Shown here piece by piece: positions 4,112 to 17,916 of a stretch of DNA of 24,000 bases. The translations under genes and the position numbers were made by a program. A model generated the notes under the pieces. That model searched no databases, was not told the DNA's origin, and saw nothing but the letters and a program-made list of their open reading frames with translations. Origin of the DNA: an uncultured Granulosicoccaceae bacterium (lineage in GTDB: Bacteria; Pseudomonadota; Gammaproteobacteria; Granulosicoccales; Granulosicoccaceae); contig CAZNIS010000012.1 in assembly GCA_964573105.1 (NCBI GenBank), positions 74,095 to 98,094 on the forward strand, read 5' to 3'. The stretch's first letter is position 1, and every line of letters begins with the position of its first letter.

Positions 4112-4261
4112 ATGTCCAGAAGAAGAAAGTCGCGCTTTCGCCTGGGTCGCGCAGGCAGAAGTTACCTGAGCGATGCGATAAAAATGATTGTCACCGGCGC
4201 CGCCACTCTGGCGGTCATTGGGGGCTCGGTGTATCTCGCCATGCTGATCGGCAGCTGGTAG
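4112..4261 (+). CDS. Possible 49-aa small membrane protein (basic N-terminus + one TM helix)
   Basis: Not in the ORF track (below its length cutoff). ATG 4112 to TAG 4259-4261 gives MSRRRKSRFRLGRAGRSYLSDAIKMIVTGAATLAVIGGSVYLAMLIGSW. GAGGGG at 4095-4100 lies 11 nt upstream. Three rare AGA codons and the lack of homology evidence keep confidence low. Confidence 0.35.
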   Translation: MSRRRKSRFRLGRAGRSYLSDAIKMIVTGAATLAVIGGSVYLAMLIGSW

Positions 4262-4273
4262 CGACCGCAGGGC

Positions 4274-6037
4274 TCAATCGGCACGCAGCACGGCCGTCGC
4301 CTCCCCCGCCTCTGCATAGACCAACTCACCATCGGCCCCGCTATTGAGTTCGGCTGCGTTCGCCTCGTCTGTGTCGATGTGCATTTCCAGGCGATATTTA
4401 TCGCTCACCCTGACCAGCACATCGCCGAACGACAGATCTCTCGGCCCACCCGTCACCGCGATCTCAACTACATCCCGATCTGCCACGCCAAACGCTGCGG
4501 CATCGTCCGGATGCATGTGAATGTGTCGCCGTGCGCAGATCAGCCCTTGCTGTAAATGCACCGTGCCGGCCGGCCCCTCCAGGGTTATCGGTGCCGAGCC
4601 TTCTACCTTACCCGAATCGCGAATCGGCGCATCGACGCCGAGCCTGAACTCATCGGTGCGGGCCACTTCTATCTGATCGACACTGCGAAGCGGGCCGAGC
4701 AGGCGCACCCCGTCAATGCGGTTGCGCGGACCGATCAGGTTCACTTTCTCTTCACAGGCATATTGCCCGGGCTGGGAGATATCCTTGTAGTGCGTCGGCT
4801 TTGCCCCTTTGCCGAATAATTTTTCAAAAGTCTCTGCAGTCAGGTGCAAATGTCTGGCGCTGACCGCGATCGGGATACCGCGCGCCGGCGTCGGTTTTGC
4901 CTGTCGCTCAACCGTGTTGGCCGACTGGCGCGCGATCATCAGTTCCTCGTCGGTCTTCACCACGACTGCTGCGACGCGCGAGCCGCGCTGCGAAATGATG
5001 GCCCGGTTGTGCTCTGTGCTGAGTTCGACATCGTGATTGGCATCGTCGTCGAGCAACAGACCCAGAAATTCCAGCCGCTGCAAAATGCGTCGCCGCATGG
5101 TGGCACTGTTTTCACCGATACCACCGGTGAACACCACGGCATCCAGGCCGCCCATCACAGCGGCGTAGCTGCCAATATACTTGCGCGCGCGATGGGCAAA
5201 AACATTGATCGCAAGCCGCGACGCATCGTGGCCCTGCTCTGCCTTGTCTTCGAGATCGCGCAGATCGTTACCGACCCCGGACAGCCCCGCAAGCCCACTT
5301 TGACGATTCAATAGATCATCGAGCTGCTGAATGGTGTAATCGCCACTGCGCAGCAGGTTGAGCATCGCACCGGCATCGATATCGCCCGCGCGGGTGCCCA
5401 TCACCAGCCCTTCAAGCGGCGTCGCCCCCATACTGGTCTCGGTGGATTTGCCGTACTCCACCGCGCAGGCACTGGCACCATTACCCAGGTGCAGCGTCAC
5501 TATGCGCAAATCTGCGATTGAGCTGCCGAGCGCCTCGGCGGCCTCACCTGCGACGTAACGATGCGAGGTGCCGTGAAAGCCAAAGCGGCGAATACGATGG
5601 CTGTTGGCAACGTCCTGTGGAATGGCATAAGTCTGTGCACGTCGTGGCATGCGGGCGTGAAATGCCGTGTCGAATACGGCGACCTGCGGCACCTTTGGCC
5701 ATACGTGCATCGCCTGTCGTATACCCTCGAGGTTAAACGGGTTATGTAGCGGCGCATCGGCTGCGCGTGCATCTATCTCGGCGATGACGGTGTCATCGAT
5801 CAATGTCGCATCGATAAATCGATCGCCACCATGTACCACCCGGTGGCCCACGACATCCACCTGGTGATCCGCGACCGCCTGACACAGATGTTCCAGCGCG
5901 GCGGCGTGAGTGGCAAACTCCCCGTCCGGATCACCAATTCGCGTGCACTTGCCGACGACGATGCGCGCATCGGTACGCAGGTCGATCAGTTGATACTTGA
6001 CACTCGAAGATCCGCAATTGACTACCAGCACATGCAT
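4274..6037 (-). CDS. ackA: Fusion protein: acetate/propionate kinase (AckA, aa 1-372) + PduL-type phosphate acyltransferase (aa ~387-587)
   Basis: N-terminal VLVVNCGSSSVKY, FHGTSHRY, FTGGIGEN and the C-terminal-type TDEELMIAR are acetate kinase hallmarks. After linker NTVERQAKPTPAR, the rest matches PduL along its length: IPIAVSARHLHL, QPGQYA, LLGPLRSVDQIEVARTD, ARRHIHMHP, LEMHIDTDEANAA. The PduL domain is roughly nt 4277-4879. Confidence 0.9.
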   Translation of the reverse strand: MHVLVVNCGSSSVKYQLIDLRTDARIVVGKCTRIGDPDGEFATHAAALEHLCQAVADHQVDVVGHRVVHGGDRFIDATLIDDTVIAEIDARAADAPLHNPFNLEGIRQAMHVWPKVPQVAVFDTAFHARMPRRAQTYAIPQDVANSHRIRRFGFHGTSHRYVAGEAAEALGSSIADLRIVTLHLGNGASACAVEYGKSTETSMGATPLEGLVMGTRAGDIDAGAMLNLLRSGDYTIQQLDDLLNRQSGLAGLSGVGNDLRDLEDKAEQGHDASRLAINVFAHRARKYIGSYAAVMGGLDAVVFTGGIGENSATMRRRILQRLEFLGLLLDDDANHDVELSTEHNRAIISQRGSRVAAVVVKTDEELMIARQSANTVERQAKPTPARGIPIAVSARHLHLTAETFEKLFGKGAKPTHYKDISQPGQYACEEKVNLIGPRNRIDGVRLLGPLRSVDQIEVARTDEFRLGVDAPIRDSGKVEGSAPITLEGPAGTVHLQQGLICARRHIHMHPDDAAAFGVADRDVVEIAVTGGPRDLSFGDVLVRVSDKYRLEMHIDTDEANAAELNSGADGELVYAEAGEATAVLRAD

Positions 6038-6203
6038 GAAGTGGCACTCGCCTCACAAGGGTTTGTTTCATACTACTACGGTTGAGCCGTGCAGTGCTTT
6101 TTTAACCGGCAGCATAAACGATGACTATGCGCCAGGCAGCCAGCTGCCACAGGCACCTCAGTGTAATAAGTCCACTTGCGATTCACGAGAAATAATCGCA
6201 AAC

Positions 6204-6231
6204 AAAAAAGGCGACCCGAAGGTCGCCTTTT
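6204..6231 (-). terminator. Rho-independent terminator of the beta-propeller gene (structurally bidirectional)
   Basis: AAAAAA GGCGACC CGAA GGTCGCC TTTT. The 7-bp GC stem is 6210-6216 / 6221-6227. On the minus strand TTTTTTGTTT follows. It lies 68 nt downstream of the stop at 6299. Confidence 0.85.
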
Positions 6232-12733: not shown

Positions 12734-14251
12734 TCAACGCGGGTTTAATTGTCCGTAGAGTCGTGCAAATCGCACACCCAGTTCACGCAGGCCGACAGCT
12801 GAAAAGTGTGACCCGTCAGTGTCGTCTTCACGCGCGGGCAGATCGGTGGCCTGCACGCAACCACTCAGCGGATCCGCATCGCGGTTCAGTGCCATCAAGT
12901 GGCGATTCACCCCCACTGCACGACGGGTTTCACCACAGATAAACACTGTCCGTCCCGGTGAGGCCCACGGCTCTGAACGAAAGTTTTTTATCAGTGCCTG
13001 CAATTTGATCGGATAGTAATTTCGGTAGTCGGGAGAGCTTGCAGGAATACCACTGGCCAGTGGGTCCGAGGTACCGTGGAACTGCCAGTCGGTCTCGCCC
13101 TGATGCCACAGAATGCCATCAATGGTGTCGCGATGGGGCAGCGCATCGAGTGCCGCCTGCACCTTATCGCTCACCTCGCGATAAAACGGGCCATGGCGAT
13201 CCCAGTGTGATATTCCCTTGCCCGGTGCAGAGGCTACGATAAAGGCCGGCACCCTGCCCGAGCCGGACTGAGCCAGCGCTTTGCCAAAGTGAAACGCGAA
13301 ATTGTTATAGGGACGGCGGTTCGGATTCTCCTTCGAAAAATTTCCCGGATGTCCGTTGCGATCCCATACCTGATGCAGATCTGCCGTTTGCCAGCCGGCA
13401 CTGGTCCAGGCAAAGACGCGCTGATCCGGCTGATCGAGGCCCGGGTCGTAGGCGGTCATCGAACCCAGCACGTTCGATTGCCCGGTCACCAGTATCACGT
13501 CGGTAATGTCGGCGAGCGTCAGCGCTTTTTGCGCTCCAGCGCCGCCGACGGCTTGCGAGACGCTGCGATCGGAGGTGACGAGACAGGTCTTGCCGCGCTG
13601 CCAGCCGATGCCGTCGCCGTCTGGATCCATATCAGCCCGCTCACACACGGCGACGCCCGCATCGCTGGCACACAGCGCGTTATCAACCCAGCCAATCCCG
13701 TCGCGATCCGGGTCCTGGCGTGGCGAGGTACAGCGTCGCAGACCGGGTGCGGTAACGCGAGCAGGCTCCGTCGCCGACGGCGTCACCGGTTTATTGGTGG
13801 TGCGCTGCACCATGCAACTGGCGTTGTTCTCCCAGCCGTAGCCATCGCCGTCCGGATCGCTGTCATCGCGTGTACAAGGCGGGTGCACACCTGTGGTGGC
13901 GGGTGCGGGTTTTTGATCCGCAACAGCGCCAGACGGCATTCGGCAGGAACGATTGTCTTCCCAGCCCCAGCCATCGCCGTCCGGGTCAGAGTTGGTCTGG
14001 CAGGTCGCGTGTGTCGGGGCCGAGTCCGCTGCACCCCCTGCGACAATACACGACGCCTGATTTTCCCAGCCCCAGCCATCGCCATCCGGATCAGAGGCCG
14101 CCGACTGGCAGACTGGGGTGGCGGCAGCGGCCGCCTCGATAAACGGTCCGATAACAAGACCCGCCAGCAAGGCGAGTGCGCTTCGTGAAAGAACGACATT
14201 GGGGATTGGCAAAGCGATTATTCCGATGCGCTGACGGGGACATCCCGTCAC
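12734..14251 (-). CDS. Secreted SASA/SGNH-type esterase (sialate O-acetylesterase-like), paralog 1, with five N-terminal Cys-bracketed DPDGDG repeats
   Basis: The ORF-track start is GTG 14251. An in-frame TTG 13 codons downstream (TTG CCA ATC, nt ~14212) is also possible. Signal peptide ALALLAGLVIGPFIEAAAAA. Esterase domain motifs: VILVTGQSNVLG, ILWHQGETDW, FICGET, DGSHF. Confidence 0.8.
   Translation of the reverse strand: MTGCPRQRIGIIALPIPNVVLSRSALALLAGLVIGPFIEAAAAATPVCQSAASDPDGDGWGWENQASCIVAGGAADSAPTHATCQTNSDPDGDGWGWEDNRSCRMPSGAVADQKPAPATTGVHPPCTRDDSDPDGDGYGWENNASCMVQRTTNKPVTPSATEPARVTAPGLRRCTSPRQDPDRDGIGWVDNALCASDAGVAVCERADMDPDGDGIGWQRGKTCLVTSDRSVSQAVGGAGAQKALTLADITDVILVTGQSNVLGSMTAYDPGLDQPDQRVFAWTSAGWQTADLHQVWDRNGHPGNFSKENPNRRPYNNFAFHFGKALAQSGSGRVPAFIVASAPGKGISHWDRHGPFYREVSDKVQAALDALPHRDTIDGILWHQGETDWQFHGTSDPLASGIPASSPDYRNYYPIKLQALIKNFRSEPWASPGRTVFICGETRRAVGVNRHLMALNRDADPLSGCVQATDLPAREDDTDGSHFSAVGLRELGVRFARLYGQLNPR
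13583..14110 (-). repeat. Five protein-level repeats C-x4-5-DPD[GR]DG-[WYI]-GW-x-[NDR]-x3-C within paralog 1
   Basis: Cys pairs at aa 48/68, 84/103, 126/146, 174/194 and 203/223. Each brackets DPDGDGWGWEN, DPDGDGWGWED, DPDGDGYGWEN, DPDRDGIGWVD or DPDGDGIGWQR. The plus strand shows the recurring CCAGCC..ATCGCC.TCCGGATC pattern near 13600, 13690, 13832, 13962 and 14066. Confidence 0.85.
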
Positions 14252-14307
14252 TCAGAATACCTGACAAATTGCCTGAATTGCTTTGATGCGCCTGAAGGGA
14301 ACTTGAA

Positions 14308-14323
14308 CAACGGTAAACCGTTG
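14308..14323. promoter_or_regulatory. Perfect 7-2-7 palindrome CAACGGT-AA-ACCGTTG in the paralog 2 / paralog 1 spacer
   Basis: Located 6 nt downstream of the paralog 2 stop (14330) and ~57-72 nt upstream of the paralog 1 start. The 2-nt loop is too tight for a normal RNA hairpin, so a dimeric protein-binding site is more likely. Confidence 0.3.
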
Positions 14324-14329
14324 ACCCAA

Positions 14330-15343
14330 TCAGTCAACGAGGTTGAGATAAGCCTCAGCGTAGCTTTGACCGAGCGCTCGCAACCCCTCGGCTGTAAAGT
14401 GCACATATTCTGGCGCATCGTAAGTTGGCAAACCCTCACCACTGACGCAGGCCGTCCACGGATCGTTGTCGGTATTGAGCGCCATCAATCGGCTGTTAAT
14501 CGGTGCCTGCGCGGTCTCACCACAGATGAATGGCTTGCCGTTGTCAAACCAGTTTTCGCTGCGGAAATTAGAGATCAGGGCATACAGCTTATCGCTGTAA
14601 TATTCGCTGCCAACCATGACACCACCAAGGTCTGGATCGCTCGAGCCATTGATCACCCAGTCGGTCTCGCCCTGATGCCACAGAATGCCGTCAAAGGTGC
14701 TCTTGTGCGGCAACTCATTAAGTGCTGCCACCGCCTTGTTGCTGACCTGATTATAGAAATAGGTGCCATAGTCCCAGTGACTGATGCCCTCACCAGGTGC
14801 CGTCGCCAGCACAATGCCGACCACCCGATCGCTGTCGGCAGCCACCAGCTGTTTGCCAAAATGCAGGCCGAAGTTGTTGTGCGGATCGCCGTTCGGGTCG
14901 GTGCGCGGATTCCAGCCAAGATCCCACACCTGACGCAGACTGGCGCGCTGCCAGCCCTCGTCTGTCCAGGCATAGAAACGATCGACTGGCGCATCCAGCA
15001 CAGGATCGAAGTCAGTTTCAGCGCCGAGTGCATTTGACTGCCCGGTAATCAGCACCAGATCGGTGATACCGGATGGCATATCGACGACTGGTTTCGAATC
15101 GGGATCTTCGGGATCGGTGTTGTCACCCCCAACGACGATGACGGTATTACCGTCTTCCTCATCGCCACCCTGTGCCGCCGATGTATCGACCTCGGGCTCA
15201 GGTTGCGGCTGATTGCCAGACTCACCGCCAACCACAATGACAGTGCGGTCCTCGTCGCCATCGCCAGACGCGCACGCGGTTAGCACGGCCAACGCAACGG
15301 TTGTCAACGCTATACGCCAAGTCTGACTGAGTCTACCTTTCAC
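14330..15343 (-). CDS. SASA/SGNH-type esterase lipoprotein, paralog 2
   Basis: GTG start 15343 with GGGGG ~10 nt upstream. Signal plus lipobox: ALAVLTAC-ASG. Acidic linker with two TVIVVGG strands. Motifs: LVLITGQSNALG, ILWHQGETDW, FICGET, EYVHF. Confidence 0.85.
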   Translation of the reverse strand: MKGRLSQTWRIALTTVALAVLTACASGDGDEDRTVIVVGGESGNQPQPEPEVDTSAAQGGDEEDGNTVIVVGGDNTDPEDPDSKPVVDMPSGITDLVLITGQSNALGAETDFDPVLDAPVDRFYAWTDEGWQRASLRQVWDLGWNPRTDPNGDPHNNFGLHFGKQLVAADSDRVVGIVLATAPGEGISHWDYGTYFYNQVSNKAVAALNELPHKSTFDGILWHQGETDWVINGSSDPDLGGVMVGSEYYSDKLYALISNFRSENWFDNGKPFICGETAQAPINSRLMALNTDNDPWTACVSGEGLPTYDAPEYVHFTAEGLRALGQSYAEAYLNLVD

Positions 15344-15625
15344 CTAAACGAACCCCCGGCCTGTATCTGGACACCAAGTGTCTCAATTGCGTTACACACC
15401 GACCGCGAGCCGTTTCAGGTTTCAGCGTTTTATGAGCACTGGCATGGCGAGTACTGTCGACCACGCCCGATTTGGCAGTCAGGAGTTAACAAGCCAGTAT
15501 TCGGCGTCCCCCGGGGGTTCTGAAGACGCATTTCAGGTTGTTCGCGAACTTATCCGCAGTATCCGGGCGCGTCAGGCGACGCGCCAGGGCCTTCCCGTCA
15601 GGAAATCACGAGATCGCAGGCAGTT

Positions 15626-16618
15626 TCAGGATCCGGGCGGACGAGGCTGCATGGTGATGTACTCCCAGGCGTAATTGCTGCCGATTCTGCGCAGCCCTTC
15701 AGCCGAAAAGTGGATGCCATCACCCAGCGAAGGATAGCCTTCGCCCTCAACACAGGCGGTCCAGTCATCGCCATCGGTATTGAGCCGATTGAGACGGTTA
15801 TTGACCGGCAGGCCAATCGTCTCGCCGCAGATGAAGGGCTTTTCGTAGCCGTACCAGCTCTCGTTGCGAAAGTTGGTGATCAGCTGGTTGAGCTTGGTGG
15901 TGTAGTAGTCCGAATCGGCCGCATCGGACTCGCCCTGATGCCACAGGATTCCGTCGAATGAGGATTTGTGCGGTATCTGATTCAAGGCGTTCAGCGCCTT
16001 GTTGCGTATCTGACCAAAGAACTCACCATCGAGATCCCAGTGCGCGATTTCGCGCCCGGGCGCGGTTATCAGCACGATGGCGACACGGCGATCCGTCCGG
16101 TTTTCCGCGATGGTCTTGCCAAAGTGCATGCCGAAGTTATTGAACGGCTCGCGATCGGGATCCGAGTCAGAGAAATTGCCCGGATGGGTCAGATCCCAGA
16201 ATTGGTGCAAATCGGCGATGCGCCAGCCCTGATCGGTGAACGCATAGACACGACTGTTGGGCCGGTCCAGATCCTCATCGAAGGTGGTTGACGCACCCAG
16301 CGCATTTGACTGCCCGGTGATCATCACAAGATCGGTGATCAAATCCAGCCGAACATCATCGGGAATGAAGAAGTCGTCCGGCTCGAATGGTTGTTCGGCC
16401 GGTTCAGGTTCCGGCGTGCCCTGGTCGGGGTTATCGCCGCCGGCACCACCGACGACCACCACCGTACCGGAGTCTTCGTCATCGTCTTCTGCGCTACCGC
16501 CGGCACAGCCATGCAAAAACAGCGCGGCCAGCAACAGCAGTACGCCAACGCATCTATGGACGCGCCATTCTGACAATCGAGTGTCATTTATTATCGGGAA
16601 ACTTTGCACTAGAGCCAT
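15626..16618 (-). CDS. SASA/SGNH-type esterase lipoprotein, paralog 3
   Basis: Start uncertain: ORF-track TTG 16687, ATG 16618 (chosen) or TTG 16576; none has a clear SD. Signal plus lipobox: VLLLLAALFLHGC-AGG. Acidic linker with TVVVVGG. Motifs: LVMITGQSNALG, ILWHQGESD, FICGET, DGIHF. Confidence 0.8.
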   Translation of the reverse strand: MALVQSFPIINDTRLSEWRVHRCVGVLLLLAALFLHGCAGGSAEDDDEDSGTVVVVGGAGGDNPDQGTPEPEPAEQPFEPDDFFIPDDVRLDLITDLVMITGQSNALGASTTFDEDLDRPNSRVYAFTDQGWRIADLHQFWDLTHPGNFSDSDPDREPFNNFGMHFGKTIAENRTDRRVAIVLITAPGREIAHWDLDGEFFGQIRNKALNALNQIPHKSSFDGILWHQGESDAADSDYYTTKLNQLITNFRNESWYGYEKPFICGETIGLPVNNRLNRLNTDGDDWTACVEGEGYPSLGDGIHFSAEGLRRIGSNYAWEYITMQPRPPGS

Positions 16619-16791
16619 CCGTTTGCAGCCATGCAGCTGGCTGCACAGCGCTATCAGCAGGGACTCTCTTTGAACTAGTGAGAGCAAGGGGGTTCAGTAA
16701 AAACCCGCATTATATGCAAGCCCCACCTGCAAAACCGGCGAATTTTCCTAACTGTAGGCTAGTGCACTCTTAAGATTTTCACTCATCCTGG

Positions 16792-16818
16792 CAGGCGCGG
16801 CCAAGTGCCGCGCGCCTG
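16792..16818 (-). terminator. GC-rich hairpin downstream of paralog 4 (weak terminator candidate)
   Basis: Perfect 8-bp stem CAGGCGCG (16792-16799) / CGCGCCTG (16811-16818) with an 11-nt loop, 16 nt after the stop at 16834. No U-run follows on the minus strand, so it is not a canonical intrinsic terminator. Confidence 0.3.
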
Positions 16819-16833
16819 GATTGCCTTGCGCGC

Positions 16834-17916
16834 TCAACGTGGAAGTTGCCACCACATCTGATTGTACAAATCGGCATAGCGCTGCCCCATGGTGCGCAGG
16901 GCGGTGGCCAGAAAGTGGGCGCCATCTTCGTGCGTAGGCAGCCCGGCGGCAGCGATACAGCCGGTCCACGGGTCCCCATCGTGGTTTAACGCCATCAGCT
17001 GCGCGTTCACCGCAAACTGCGACGTTTCACCGCAGATGAAGGGTCGGTCAGCCGAGAACCAGCTCTCTGCGCGAAAATTGGCAACCAGCGAATTCAACGC
17101 CTGCGCGTAGGCTTCACCACCATTTGCATCGGATTCACCCTGATGCCACAGAATGCCATCCAGCTGGTTTTTGGTCGGATGTTCAGCCAGCGCGGCACGC
17201 ACCTTTCGATCGACCGCGCGATAGAAATCGCCATCCCGCTGCCAGTGAGCAATCGGCTGCCCGGGCGCAGTTGCCAACACAAATCCAAACACTCTGTTAG
17301 TGCCAGCGGTCAGTTGAACCATTCGCTTGCCATAGTGCAACGCCAGATTGTTCGACGGCGGTTCACTGCCATCATTGCCCGGATGCCAGCCCAGATCCCA
17401 GATCTGGTGCAAGTCGGCAATCTGCCAGCCACGATCGGTATAGGCCAGTACTCTCGAATCCGGGGAATCAAGGCCCGCATCAAAGCTCGTCCCCGCACCC
17501 AGCGCATTCGACTGTCCGGTCAACAGCACCAGGTCGGTGATATCTTCAAGCTGATGTGGCCCATTGATCGGCGTTGACCAAACCACAGGCTCTGTCACTT
17601 CGGGCTCGGCAGGTGTCTCGATAGTGAACTCGTCCTGCTCCAGCGTTTCCGCCGGTGGTTCTGTCTGCGCCAGCGCTGCATCGGGTTCTGCGGCGGCCGG
17701 GTCATTGACGGGCTCGAAAGCATCGTCATCAACCTGAGGCAGACCGGTAGCGGCGGTTTCAGGTTCGCTTGCCGACGGCTGGGTGACAGAGGGCGTGTCC
17801 GCCGGTGGGGTGACAGGCTCAAGTGAGGCACTGCTGCTGCAGCCGGCGATCACAGCCGCCAGTGATACCGCCGCCAGCAGTCGACCCGATCTGGTCAATT
17901 CAAAGCCAACCCACAC
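16834..17916 (-). CDS. SASA/SGNH-type esterase lipoprotein, paralog 4
   Basis: GTG 17916 with GGGAGAG (revcomp of 17925-17931) 7 nt upstream. Signal plus lipobox: LAAVIAGC-SSS. ~100-aa Pro/Glu/Ala/Thr-rich linker. Motifs: LVLLTGQSNALG, ILWHQGESD, FICGET, DGAHF. Confidence 0.85.
   Translation of the reverse strand: MWVGFELTRSGRLLAAVSLAAVIAGCSSSASLEPVTPPADTPSVTQPSASEPETAATGLPQVDDDAFEPVNDPAAAEPDAALAQTEPPAETLEQDEFTIETPAEPEVTEPVVWSTPINGPHQLEDITDLVLLTGQSNALGAGTSFDAGLDSPDSRVLAYTDRGWQIADLHQIWDLGWHPGNDGSEPPSNNLALHYGKRMVQLTAGTNRVFGFVLATAPGQPIAHWQRDGDFYRAVDRKVRAALAEHPTKNQLDGILWHQGESDANGGEAYAQALNSLVANFRAESWFSADRPFICGETSQFAVNAQLMALNHDGDPWTGCIAAAGLPTHEDGAHFLATALRTMGQRYADLYNQMWWQLPR

What the first reader, a model, noticed from the sequence alone, without database searches (positions are those of the whole stretch)
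4274..6037. Acetate kinase fused to a PduL-type phosphotransacylase in one polypeptide, outside any microcompartment locus
Seen: one uninterrupted 587-aa ORF. AckA hallmarks span aa 1-372. After a 14-aa linker there is a full-length PduL-like region carrying the RHxH and HIDTDEANAA metal-site-type motifs. Established: PduL (PF06130) is the non-homologous analogue of Pta, converting acyl-CoA plus Pi to acyl-phosphate. It is normally a ~210-aa protein in bacterial microcompartment operons, often with an N-terminal encapsulation peptide. AckA then converts the acyl-phosphate to the acid plus ATP. Inference: the fusion puts both steps in one chain, which could channel acetyl- or propionyl-phosphate. 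It replaces the classic ackA-pta operon, and no pta or shell-protein gene is visible in the 24 kb. I cannot tell how widespread this fusion is or whether it has been characterised.
Basis: partly seen in the sequence, partly recalled or inferred. Interest (0 to 1): 0.6.

Follow-up and report, generated by a model that had tools for sequence, protein, structure and literature searches.

The report
Acetate kinase–PduL fusion enzyme gene
This is a real, intact gene that joins the two enzymes linking acetyl-CoA, acetyl-phosphate and acetate/ATP into one protein; the design is common in marine bacteria, was already noted in a 2016 paper, and has never been studied at the bench, so it is a solid but ordinary find.

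Summary
Window 4274-6037 (minus strand) is one 587-aa ORF. It has a full-length acetate kinase domain (aa 3-370) and a full-length PduL phosphotransacylase domain (aa 389-564). Every catalytic and metal-binding residue checked in both domains is present, and the predicted folds match solved AckA and PduL structures.

It is not an assembly artefact. 78 of 80 related loci carry the same uninterrupted ORF, with a linker of constant length (17-22 aa).

The architecture is not new. Erbilgin et al. 2016 (PMC4784909) already reported PduL fused to Ack, without an encapsulation peptide, and proposed substrate channelling. It is typical of this organism's family, Granulosicoccaceae (64 of 81 genomes). 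It also occurs in Cellvibrionales, Oceanospirillales, Myxococcota and Planctomycetota. This scan has already noted it on other DNA, in at least 28 genomes.

- The genome keeps a standalone Pta on another contig, as do nearly all family members. The fusion therefore does not replace Pta here, although it appears to in four Pta-less gammaproteobacterial genomes outside the family.
- The genome has a microcompartment locus on another contig, but the fusion is distributed independently of shell genes.

I found no biochemical characterisation. Verdict: a new member of a known, uncharacterised architecture, of modest interest.

The parts
4274..6037 (-). Complete ackA-pduL fusion gene, 587 codons plus TGA stop
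   Evidence: 78 of 80 related loci have the same intact ORF of 581-654 aa
4922..6037 (-). Acetate/propionate kinase (AckA, ASKHA fold) domain, aa 1-372
   Evidence: PF00871 E 2.6e-127. Alignment to 1TUU/2IIR. N7, R66, H98, D123, H155, N186, R216, R260 and E364 correspond to M. thermophila N7, R91, H123, D148, H180, N211, R241, R285 and E384, and are invariant in 40 fusions. Foldseek TM 0.77-0.85 to solved AckA structures.
4877..4921 (-). Hydrophilic inter-domain linker, aa 373-387. Variable sequence, constant length.
   Evidence: 17-22 residues between invariant A369 and I388 in 40 homologues. In the model, helix 364-380 runs on from the end of the AckA match into the start of the linker, aa 381-387 are coil, and the first PduL strand starts at 388. 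No stop or frameshift in orthologues.
4346..4876 (-). PduL-type phosphotransacylase domain (PF06130), aa 388-564
   Evidence: PF06130 E 2.2e-72. Alignment to R. palustris PduL 5CUO, E 1.6e-42. Metal ligands H396, H398, E457, H505, H507, H553, plus R451 and S475, are present. Foldseek 5cuo TM 0.87, rmsd 1.5 A.
4277..4345 (-). C-terminal tail, aa 565-587. Low-confidence, semi-conserved (G570 invariant).
6203..6227 (-). Hairpin plus T-run (GGCGACC-TTCG-GGTCGCC-TTTTTT) downstream of the preceding beta-propeller gene. It separates that gene from ackA-pduL, which therefore looks monocistronic.
   Evidence: Read directly from the sequence. Not flagged by the consensus scan.
6038..6202 (-). 5' intergenic region that must hold the gene's own promoter and ribosome-binding site (possible GAGG at 6051-6054)
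   Evidence: No consensus sigma-70 site was found on this strand, so the promoter is inferred, not seen.

Best explanation
The gene encodes a cytosolic bifunctional enzyme. The C-terminal PduL domain has a di-metal active site. It interconverts acetyl-CoA plus phosphate with acetyl-phosphate plus CoA. The N-terminal AckA domain interconverts acetyl-phosphate plus ADP with acetate plus ATP. One chain therefore carries the whole reversible acetyl-CoA/acetate/ATP pathway. The two halves are joined by a short linker of fixed length. The gene stands alone, with a terminator upstream and a convergent gene downstream, and it is the only acetate kinase in the genome. It belongs to an old, mostly vertically inherited AckA-PduL clade. 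That clade is typical of Granulosicoccaceae and also occurs in other marine gammaproteobacteria and Myxococcota. It has nothing to do with microcompartments. Shown: the architecture, intact catalytic residues, the folds, conservation and distribution. Inferred: the two activities, acetate as the substrate, the direction of flux in the cell, and any channelling of acetyl-phosphate.
For: Full-length domain matches above curated cut-offs. All AckA catalytic and ATP-site residues are present and invariant in 40 homologues; the acetate-pocket residues are present, three of them invariant (L122 position L/M/I); the only departure from M. thermophila is F284->L. All six PduL metal ligands and the phosphate/CoA contacts are also present. 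AlphaFold model pLDDT 78.7, matching AckA (TM about 0.8) and PduL 5CUO (TM 0.87). 78 of 80 loci from other species have the intact fused ORF. Linker length is 17-22 aa in all 40 aligned. It is the only PF00871 and only PF06130 match in a 99.5%-complete genome. 64 of 81 family genomes have PduL, nearly all in open frames of 590-680 aa. 49 of those 64 have no shell gene. Four fusion-bearing genomes outside the family had no Pta match and no second AckA. 31 of 33 AckA-linked PduL domains fall in one starred clade. Erbilgin 2016 describes the same fusion and the same idea.
Against: No enzymology exists for any member that I could find. No promoter was recognised. The monomer model says nothing reliable about how the two active sites face each other, so channelling is pure inference. 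Part of the AckA domain (aa 203-254) is modelled with low confidence. A standalone Pta coexists in this genome, so the fused PduL domain is not strictly needed for acetyl-CoA/acetyl-phosphate exchange.
Confidence: 0.85

Rival explanations
1. Same enzyme, opposite physiological direction. It mainly activates acetate to acetyl-CoA (acetate -> acetyl-phosphate -> acetyl-CoA) as a high-capacity route beside Acs, for example for acetate released by the exported acetylesterases encoded 7-12 kb away. It would then not be making ATP by excreting acetate.
For: Both reactions are reversible (established; stated). The hosts are mostly aerobic marine heterotrophs (titles). Four SASA acetylesterase genes lie at window 12734-17916, and such esterases recur near the fusion in 7 loci. 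The genome also has a bona fide Acs.
Against: The esterase linkage is limited to a few family members, and no neighbour is conserved across lineages. Nothing in the sequence sets a direction.
Confidence: 0.4
2. The fused PduL domain serves the genome's microcompartment. That locus has an aldehyde dehydrogenase but no phosphotransacylase of its own, so the fusion would process its acyl-CoA product.
For: The BMC locus on contig C10 encodes EutN, BMC-H, AldDH and an Ldh-like dehydrogenase but no PduL or Pta. The fusion is the only PduL in the genome.
Against: There is no encapsulation peptide: the PduL domain starts right after a 15-aa hydrophilic linker. The two loci are on different contigs. 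49 of 64 fusion-bearing family genomes have no shell gene, and 6 of 21 shell-bearing genomes have no fusion.
Confidence: 0.05
3. Artefact: two adjacent genes (ackA, pduL) were joined by a sequencing or assembly error in the linker.
For: None beyond the general possibility in a 214-contig draft genome.
Against: 78 of 80 independent assemblies from several phyla have the same continuous ORF. More than 120 protein clusters of 585-602 aa carry both domains. Linker length is conserved.
Confidence: 0.01
4. The preferred substrate is propionyl-CoA/propionate or another short acyl chain, not acetyl.
For: PduL enzymes characterised so far act on propionyl-CoA as well as acetyl-CoA. NCBIfam names both halves generically: acetate/propionate family kinase and phosphate propanoyltransferase.
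Against: The propionate kinase equivalog scores 372.8 bits against a cut-off of 580. The acetate-pocket residues of M. thermophila AckA (V93, L122, F179, P232) are kept as V68, L97, F154, P207 (the role of these residues is from my own knowledge). It is the only AckA-family kinase in the genome, and in Pta-less relatives the only route.
Confidence: 0.15

Closest known systems
Ack-PduL multidomain proteins noted by Erbilgin et al. 2016 (PLoS Biol 14:e1002399, PMC4784909)
   Same: Same architecture: PF00871 followed by the PduL signature, no encapsulation peptide, annotated as acetate kinase. Same proposed role: PduL replacing Pta in a Pta-Ack pathway, with the fusion possibly aiding channelling.
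   Different: Nothing essential. That paper gives one paragraph and no enzymology. Added here are the distribution, the residue-by-residue check, the constant linker length, and the coexistence with a standalone Pta in this family.
Rhodopseudomonas palustris PduL (PDB 5CUO/5CUP), a BMC core phosphotransacylase
   Same: Same fold (TM 0.87, rmsd 1.5 A, 44% identity). All six zinc ligands and the phosphate/CoA contacts are the same.
   Different: rPduL is a free protein of about 210 aa with an N-terminal encapsulation peptide, encoded in a BMC locus. Here the domain is the C-terminus of an AckA, has no such peptide, and is unlinked to shell genes.
Classical AckA (Methanosarcina thermophila 1G99/1TUY; Thermotoga maritima 2IIR) working with Pta
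   Same: 45-46% identity, same fold, all catalytic residues.
   Different: Classical AckA is a free protein of about 400 aa, usually encoded next to pta (PF01515). This one is about 20 residues shorter in two N-lobe loops and carries a PduL domain. No ackA-pta operon exists in the genome.
cNMP-binding-AckA-PduL three-domain proteins (about 765-777 aa)
   Same: Sister subclade in the PduL-domain tree; same AckA-PduL core.
   Different: They carry an N-terminal cyclic-nucleotide-binding-type domain that the window protein lacks.

Membership tests
Acetate/propionate kinase family (PF00871, TIGR00016; ASKHA superfamily) | Full-length profile match above the curated cut-off | tested here: met
   PF00871 425.2 bits (cut-off 22), profile 2-392 of 392. 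TIGR00016 417 bits (cut-off 293.4).
Acetate/propionate kinase family (PF00871, TIGR00016; ASKHA superfamily) | Catalytic and nucleotide-site residues (M. thermophila N7, R91, H123, D148, H180, N211, R241, R285, G331-N335, E384) | tested here: met
   All present (N7, R66, H98, D123, H155, N186, R216, R260, G306-N310, E364) and invariant in 40 fusions. Only F284 is Leu. The list of residues is from my own knowledge of the AckA literature.
Acetate/propionate kinase family (PF00871, TIGR00016; ASKHA superfamily) | AckA fold | tested here: met
   Foldseek E 5e-41, target TM 0.77-0.85 to 1g99, 2iir, 3r9p, 4dq8. Residues 203-254 are low confidence.
Acetate/propionate kinase family (PF00871, TIGR00016; ASKHA superfamily) | Kinase activity on acetate/acetyl-phosphate | not testable with these tools
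   Needs an enzyme assay.
Propionate kinase equivalog (TdcD/PduW type, NF009045) | Score above the equivalog cut-off | tested here: not met
   372.8 bits against a cut-off of 580.
PduL phosphotransacylase (PF06130, NF011652) | Full-length profile match above the curated cut-off | tested here: met
   PF06130 243 bits (cut-off 25), profile 1-175 of 176. NF011652 246.6 bits (cut-off 209).
PduL phosphotransacylase (PF06130, NF011652) | Two-metal site: rPduL H48, H50, E109 (Zn1) and H157, H159, H204 (Zn2), plus R103 and S127 at the phosphate | tested here: met
   H396, H398, E457, H505, H507, H553, R451 and S475 are present. They are invariant in 40 fusions, except the H204 position in 1 of 40.
PduL phosphotransacylase (PF06130, NF011652) | PduL double beta-barrel fold | tested here: met
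   5cuo_A Foldseek E 1.1e-23, TM 0.87, rmsd 1.5 A over 175 columns.
PduL phosphotransacylase (PF06130, NF011652) | Acyl-CoA:phosphate acyltransferase activity | not testable with these tools
   Needs an enzyme assay.
BMC-associated (metabolosome core) PduL | N-terminal encapsulation peptide (short amphipathic helix on a linker) | tested here: not met
   The PduL domain begins at aa 388, directly after a 15-aa hydrophilic linker of variable sequence. The only helix before it (364-380) runs on from the end of the AckA match.
BMC-associated (metabolosome core) PduL | Encoded in or beside a shell-protein locus; co-occurs with shell genes | tested here: not met
   No PF00936/PF03319 gene in the window. 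The genome's BMC locus is on another contig. 49 of 64 fusion-bearing family genomes have no shell match.
Ack-PduL fusion proteins (Erbilgin 2016) | AckA and PduL in one uninterrupted polypeptide, conserved as such in orthologues, lacking an encapsulation peptide | tested here: met

The most novel reading that the evidence does not exclude
The fixed-length tether makes acetyl-phosphate a bound intermediate. That would give cells two separate acetyl-phosphate circuits. One is a sealed AckA-PduL line for acetate/acetyl-CoA/ATP exchange. The other is a free pool handled by the standalone Pta, fed for example by sulfoacetaldehyde acetyltransferase Xsc, which this genome also encodes. Acetate flux would then no longer disturb acetyl-phosphate-dependent signalling and protein acetylation.
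Probability: 0.15. Interest if true: 0.55.

Novelty: new member of a known kind. Interest (0 to 1): 0.3.

Why it matters
Acetate kinase and phosphotransacetylase form a textbook two-enzyme pathway for ATP gain and acetate use. Here the Pta step is done by the unrelated PduL enzyme, welded to the kinase, in a large set of abundant marine bacteria. In some of them it appears to be the only such route. Databases name these proteins only 'acetate/propionate family kinase', so metabolic reconstructions that look for Pta will wrongly score the pathway as incomplete. A natural fusion with a conserved tether is also a convenient test case for whether acetyl-phosphate, a signalling and acetylating metabolite, is channelled. 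For this particular window, the result is a correct annotation, not a discovery.

Tried and rejected
- The sequencing-run search for RNA or raw-read support was unavailable, so transcription and read-level integrity of the linker were not checked.
- The consensus promoter scan found no sigma-70-like site on the minus strand upstream of the gene. It also did not flag the obvious hairpin terminator that I read from the sequence.
- Synteny: clustering ORFs from 80 loci found no neighbour shared beyond 15-16 loci. The recurrent ones (Zn-ADH, DUF1223, DUF6502, M48 peptidase, photolyase, MoxR) have no evident link to acetate metabolism.
- Five literature searches for a characterised Ack-PduL enzyme found only the 2016 remark.
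- Phosphoketolase as an acetyl-phosphate source: absent from the genome.
- The 836-aa PTA_PTB open frame on C31 (809-aa ORF) is a MaeB-type NADP-malic enzyme, not a Pta.
- I considered and rejected a link to the genome's BMC locus, and an assembly artefact (see rivals).
- The monomer AlphaFold model was not used to argue for or against channelling. No inter-domain confidence or coordinates were available, and both parent enzymes are dimers.

Full report
**Observation.** Window 4274-6037 on the minus strand is a single 587-codon ORF with an ATG start and a TGA stop.
- Pfam finds a complete Acetate_kinase domain (aa 3-370, profile 2-392 of 392, E 2.6e-127) and a complete PTAC/PduL domain (aa 389-564, profile 1-175 of 176, E 2.2e-72).
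- NCBIfam agrees: TIGR00016 at 417 bits and NF011652 at 246.6 bits, both above their cut-offs.

**Are both halves intact?**
- I aligned the C-terminal 208 residues to R. palustris PduL (5CUO, E 1.6e-42) and converted chain numbering to the paper's numbering. All six zinc ligands are present: H396, H398, E457, H505, H507, H553. So are the phosphate and CoA contacts: S393, R445, L447, R451, Q455, S475, R543, N560.
- I aligned the N-terminal 376 residues to M. thermophila AckA (1TUU). N7, S10-12, K14, R66, H98, D123, H155, N186, R216, R260, G306-N310 and E364 sit at the positions of N7, S10-12, K14, R91, H123, D148, H180, N211, R241, R285, G331-N335 and E384. The acetate-pocket residues V93, L122, F179 and P232 are kept. 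The only departure is Leu for F284.
- In an alignment of 40 fused homologues (63-93% identity), these positions are invariant or nearly so. The ATP site is therefore canonical here. Earlier notes of this scan report that some three-domain relatives have a rebuilt ATP site.
- An AlphaFold2 model (pLDDT 78.7, pTM 0.63) matches solved AckA structures (target TM 0.77-0.85) and PduL 5CUO (TM 0.87, rmsd 1.5 A). No solved structure spans both domains.

**Is the fusion real?** Yes.
- The search for homologous proteins returned at least 120 clusters at 64-93% identity. All are 585-602 aa apart from a few fragments and a few with N-terminal extensions, and all carry PF00871 plus PF06130.
- A scan of one genome per species returned at least 538 relatives. 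The best 80 all cover both domains.
- When I called ORFs myself, 78 of the 80 loci held an intact fused ORF of 581-654 aa.
- The stretch between invariant A369 and invariant I388 varies in sequence but is always 17-22 residues long. That fits a constrained tether and is not what an accidental read-through would give.

**Context in the window.**
- The preceding gene on the same strand is a PF09826 beta-propeller protein. It is followed by a hairpin and T-run at 6203-6227.
- Downstream, a 49-aa ORF converges on the fusion's stop codon, 12 nt away.
- The gene therefore looks monocistronic. Other neighbours are a giant coiled-coil protein, DUF6502, DUF1223, a phosphorylase-family protein and four SASA acetylesterases.
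- Across 80 loci no neighbour is broadly conserved.

**Context in the genome.** The assembly is 7.5 Mb and 99.5% complete. Titles of the closest loci place it in the Granulosicoccaceae.
- The fusion is the only AckA and the only PduL in the genome.
- There is a standalone 330-aa Pta on contig C2 next to lon (NF007233 327.9 bits, cut-off 310) and a MaeB-type malic enzyme carrying a PTA_PTB domain.
- The genome also has a bona fide Acs, a bona fide sulfoacetaldehyde acetyltransferase Xsc (which makes acetyl-phosphate), and no phosphoketolase.
- A BMC locus lies on contig C10. It encodes EutN, BMC-H, an aldehyde dehydrogenase, a second BMC-domain protein, an Ldh-like dehydrogenase and RidA, and has no phosphotransacylase.

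**Distribution.**
- In 81 Granulosicoccaceae genomes, 64 have PduL, nearly all in open frames of 590-680 aa.
- In 400 genomes sampled across the class, only 8 have a match, and 5 of those are in open frames of fusion length (587-675 aa).
- Shell genes occur in 21 of the 81 family genomes. 15 genomes have both shell genes and PduL, 49 have PduL without shell genes, and 6 have shell genes without PduL. The fusion is therefore independent of microcompartments.
- A short standalone Pta is present in about 70 of the 81 family genomes. In this family the fused PduL coexists with Pta.
- Four fusion-bearing gammaproteobacterial genomes from outside the family gave no Pta-family match at all (E <= 1e-20), and their only AckA is the fused one. 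They are Luminiphilus nBUS_07, a Halioglobus chromosome, HTCC2143 and Gammaproteobacteria bacterium 45_16_T64. There the fusion does appear to replace the ackA-pta pair.

**Evolution.**
- An exhaustive search with the PduL domain alone found 2670 representatives at E <= 0.001. Among the top 150 I classed 20 as AckA-PduL proteins, 13 as carrying an extra N-terminal domain before AckA-PduL, and one as reversed PduL-AckA. All eight of the extended proteins that I scanned are cNMP-binding-AckA-PduL. There are also cNMP-PduL and a PduL with a receiver-like N-terminus (my reading of the sequence), among others.
- In a quick maximum-likelihood tree of 143 PduL domains, 31 of the 33 AckA-linked domains fall in one clade (SH-aLRT 95). 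That clade has two subclades, plain AckA-PduL (which holds the query) and cNMP-AckA-PduL. Two AckA-linked proteins lie elsewhere, which suggests independent fusions.
- A tree of 78 full-length fusions largely follows taxonomy (Granulosicoccaceae, Cellvibrionales plus Oceanospirillales, Myxococcota), with a few misplaced rows.
- Both trees are quick searches with moderate support. I use them only for these coarse statements.

**Mechanism.** The best reading is a cytosolic bifunctional enzyme that carries out acetyl-CoA + Pi <-> acetyl-phosphate + CoA (PduL domain) and acetyl-phosphate + ADP <-> acetate + ATP (AckA domain).
- Acetate as the substrate is inferred from three things: the conserved acetate pocket, the failure to reach the propionate-kinase equivalog cut-off (372.8 against 580 bits), and the fact that this is the cell's only AckA.
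- The direction of flux in vivo and any channelling of acetyl-phosphate are not shown by anything here. The constant tether length is only suggestive.

**Comparison with what is known.** Erbilgin et al. [quoted passage not shown] They add that these lack encapsulation peptides, that PduL may replace Pta there, and that the fusion may aid channelling.
- Five full-text searches found no enzymology of such a fusion.
- This scan has already recorded the architecture on other DNA: 30 notes in at least 28 genomes, covering both two- and three-domain forms.

**Verdict.** This is a correct and well-supported annotation of a new member of a known but biochemically unstudied architecture. Interest is modest. 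Two points add something:
- the coexistence of the fusion with a standalone Pta throughout this family, against apparent replacement of Pta in four Pta-less genomes of other gammaproteobacteria;
- the practical warning that Pta-based pathway calls will miss this route.

Noticed in passing
L007:7212-18210 (own genome, contig C10, about 85-96 kb): A microcompartment locus of unusual make-up. It encodes EutN, BMC-H, an unassigned 399-aa protein, an aldehyde dehydrogenase, a 208-aa BMC-domain protein, an Ldh/Mdh-like dehydrogenase and RidA. It is flanked by a glutamine-synthetase-like gene and by GATase/GXGXG/Glu_synthase genes that resemble N-methylglutamate synthase. There is no phosphotransacylase in the locus. 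The same shell pair occurs in 21 of 81 family genomes.
   Followed up: partly
Proteins P0122, P0128, P0130, P0138, P0144, P0153, P0158, P0197: PduL domains close to the query's are fused to other partners: cNMP-binding domain alone; an N-terminus that reads like a response-regulator receiver (not scanned); a truncated AckA N-lobe; an unassigned 173-aa N-terminus (P0122, whose PduL domain is 72% identical to the query's); and AckA in reversed order. Some may be gene-call fragments.
   Followed up: partly
L045, L046, L059, L067, L073: Five contigs from MAGs labelled Acidimicrobiales carry fusions that nest, with full support, inside the Granulosicoccaceae clade. This is either contig mis-binning in those kelp-associated metagenomes or a recent cross-phylum transfer.
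   Followed up: no
Genomes of L087, L076, L036, L030 (G479-G482): Four gammaproteobacterial genomes outside the family (Luminiphilus nBUS_07, a Halioglobus chromosome, HTCC2143, Gammaproteobacteria bacterium 45_16_T64) have no PTA_PTB-family match at all, not even a MaeB-type malic enzyme. The fusion is their only acetate kinase.
   Followed up: partly
window 4112-4261 (+): A 49-aa ORF with a basic N-terminus and one hydrophobic helix ends 12 nt from the convergent ackA-pduL stop codon. It has no Pfam match.
   Followed up: no
window 12734-17916 (-): Four tandem SASA-type carbohydrate acetylesterase genes, one with CBM10 modules, lie 7-12 kb from the fusion. Similar esterases recur near the fusion in 7 family loci. 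They would release acetate, but the linkage is weak.
   Followed up: partly
G000:C4:61425-63152 (L090): A bona fide sulfoacetaldehyde acetyltransferase Xsc (957.7 bits, cut-off 676.4) makes acetyl-phosphate from sulfonates. The standalone Pta is not next to it but beside lon on contig C2.
   Followed up: no
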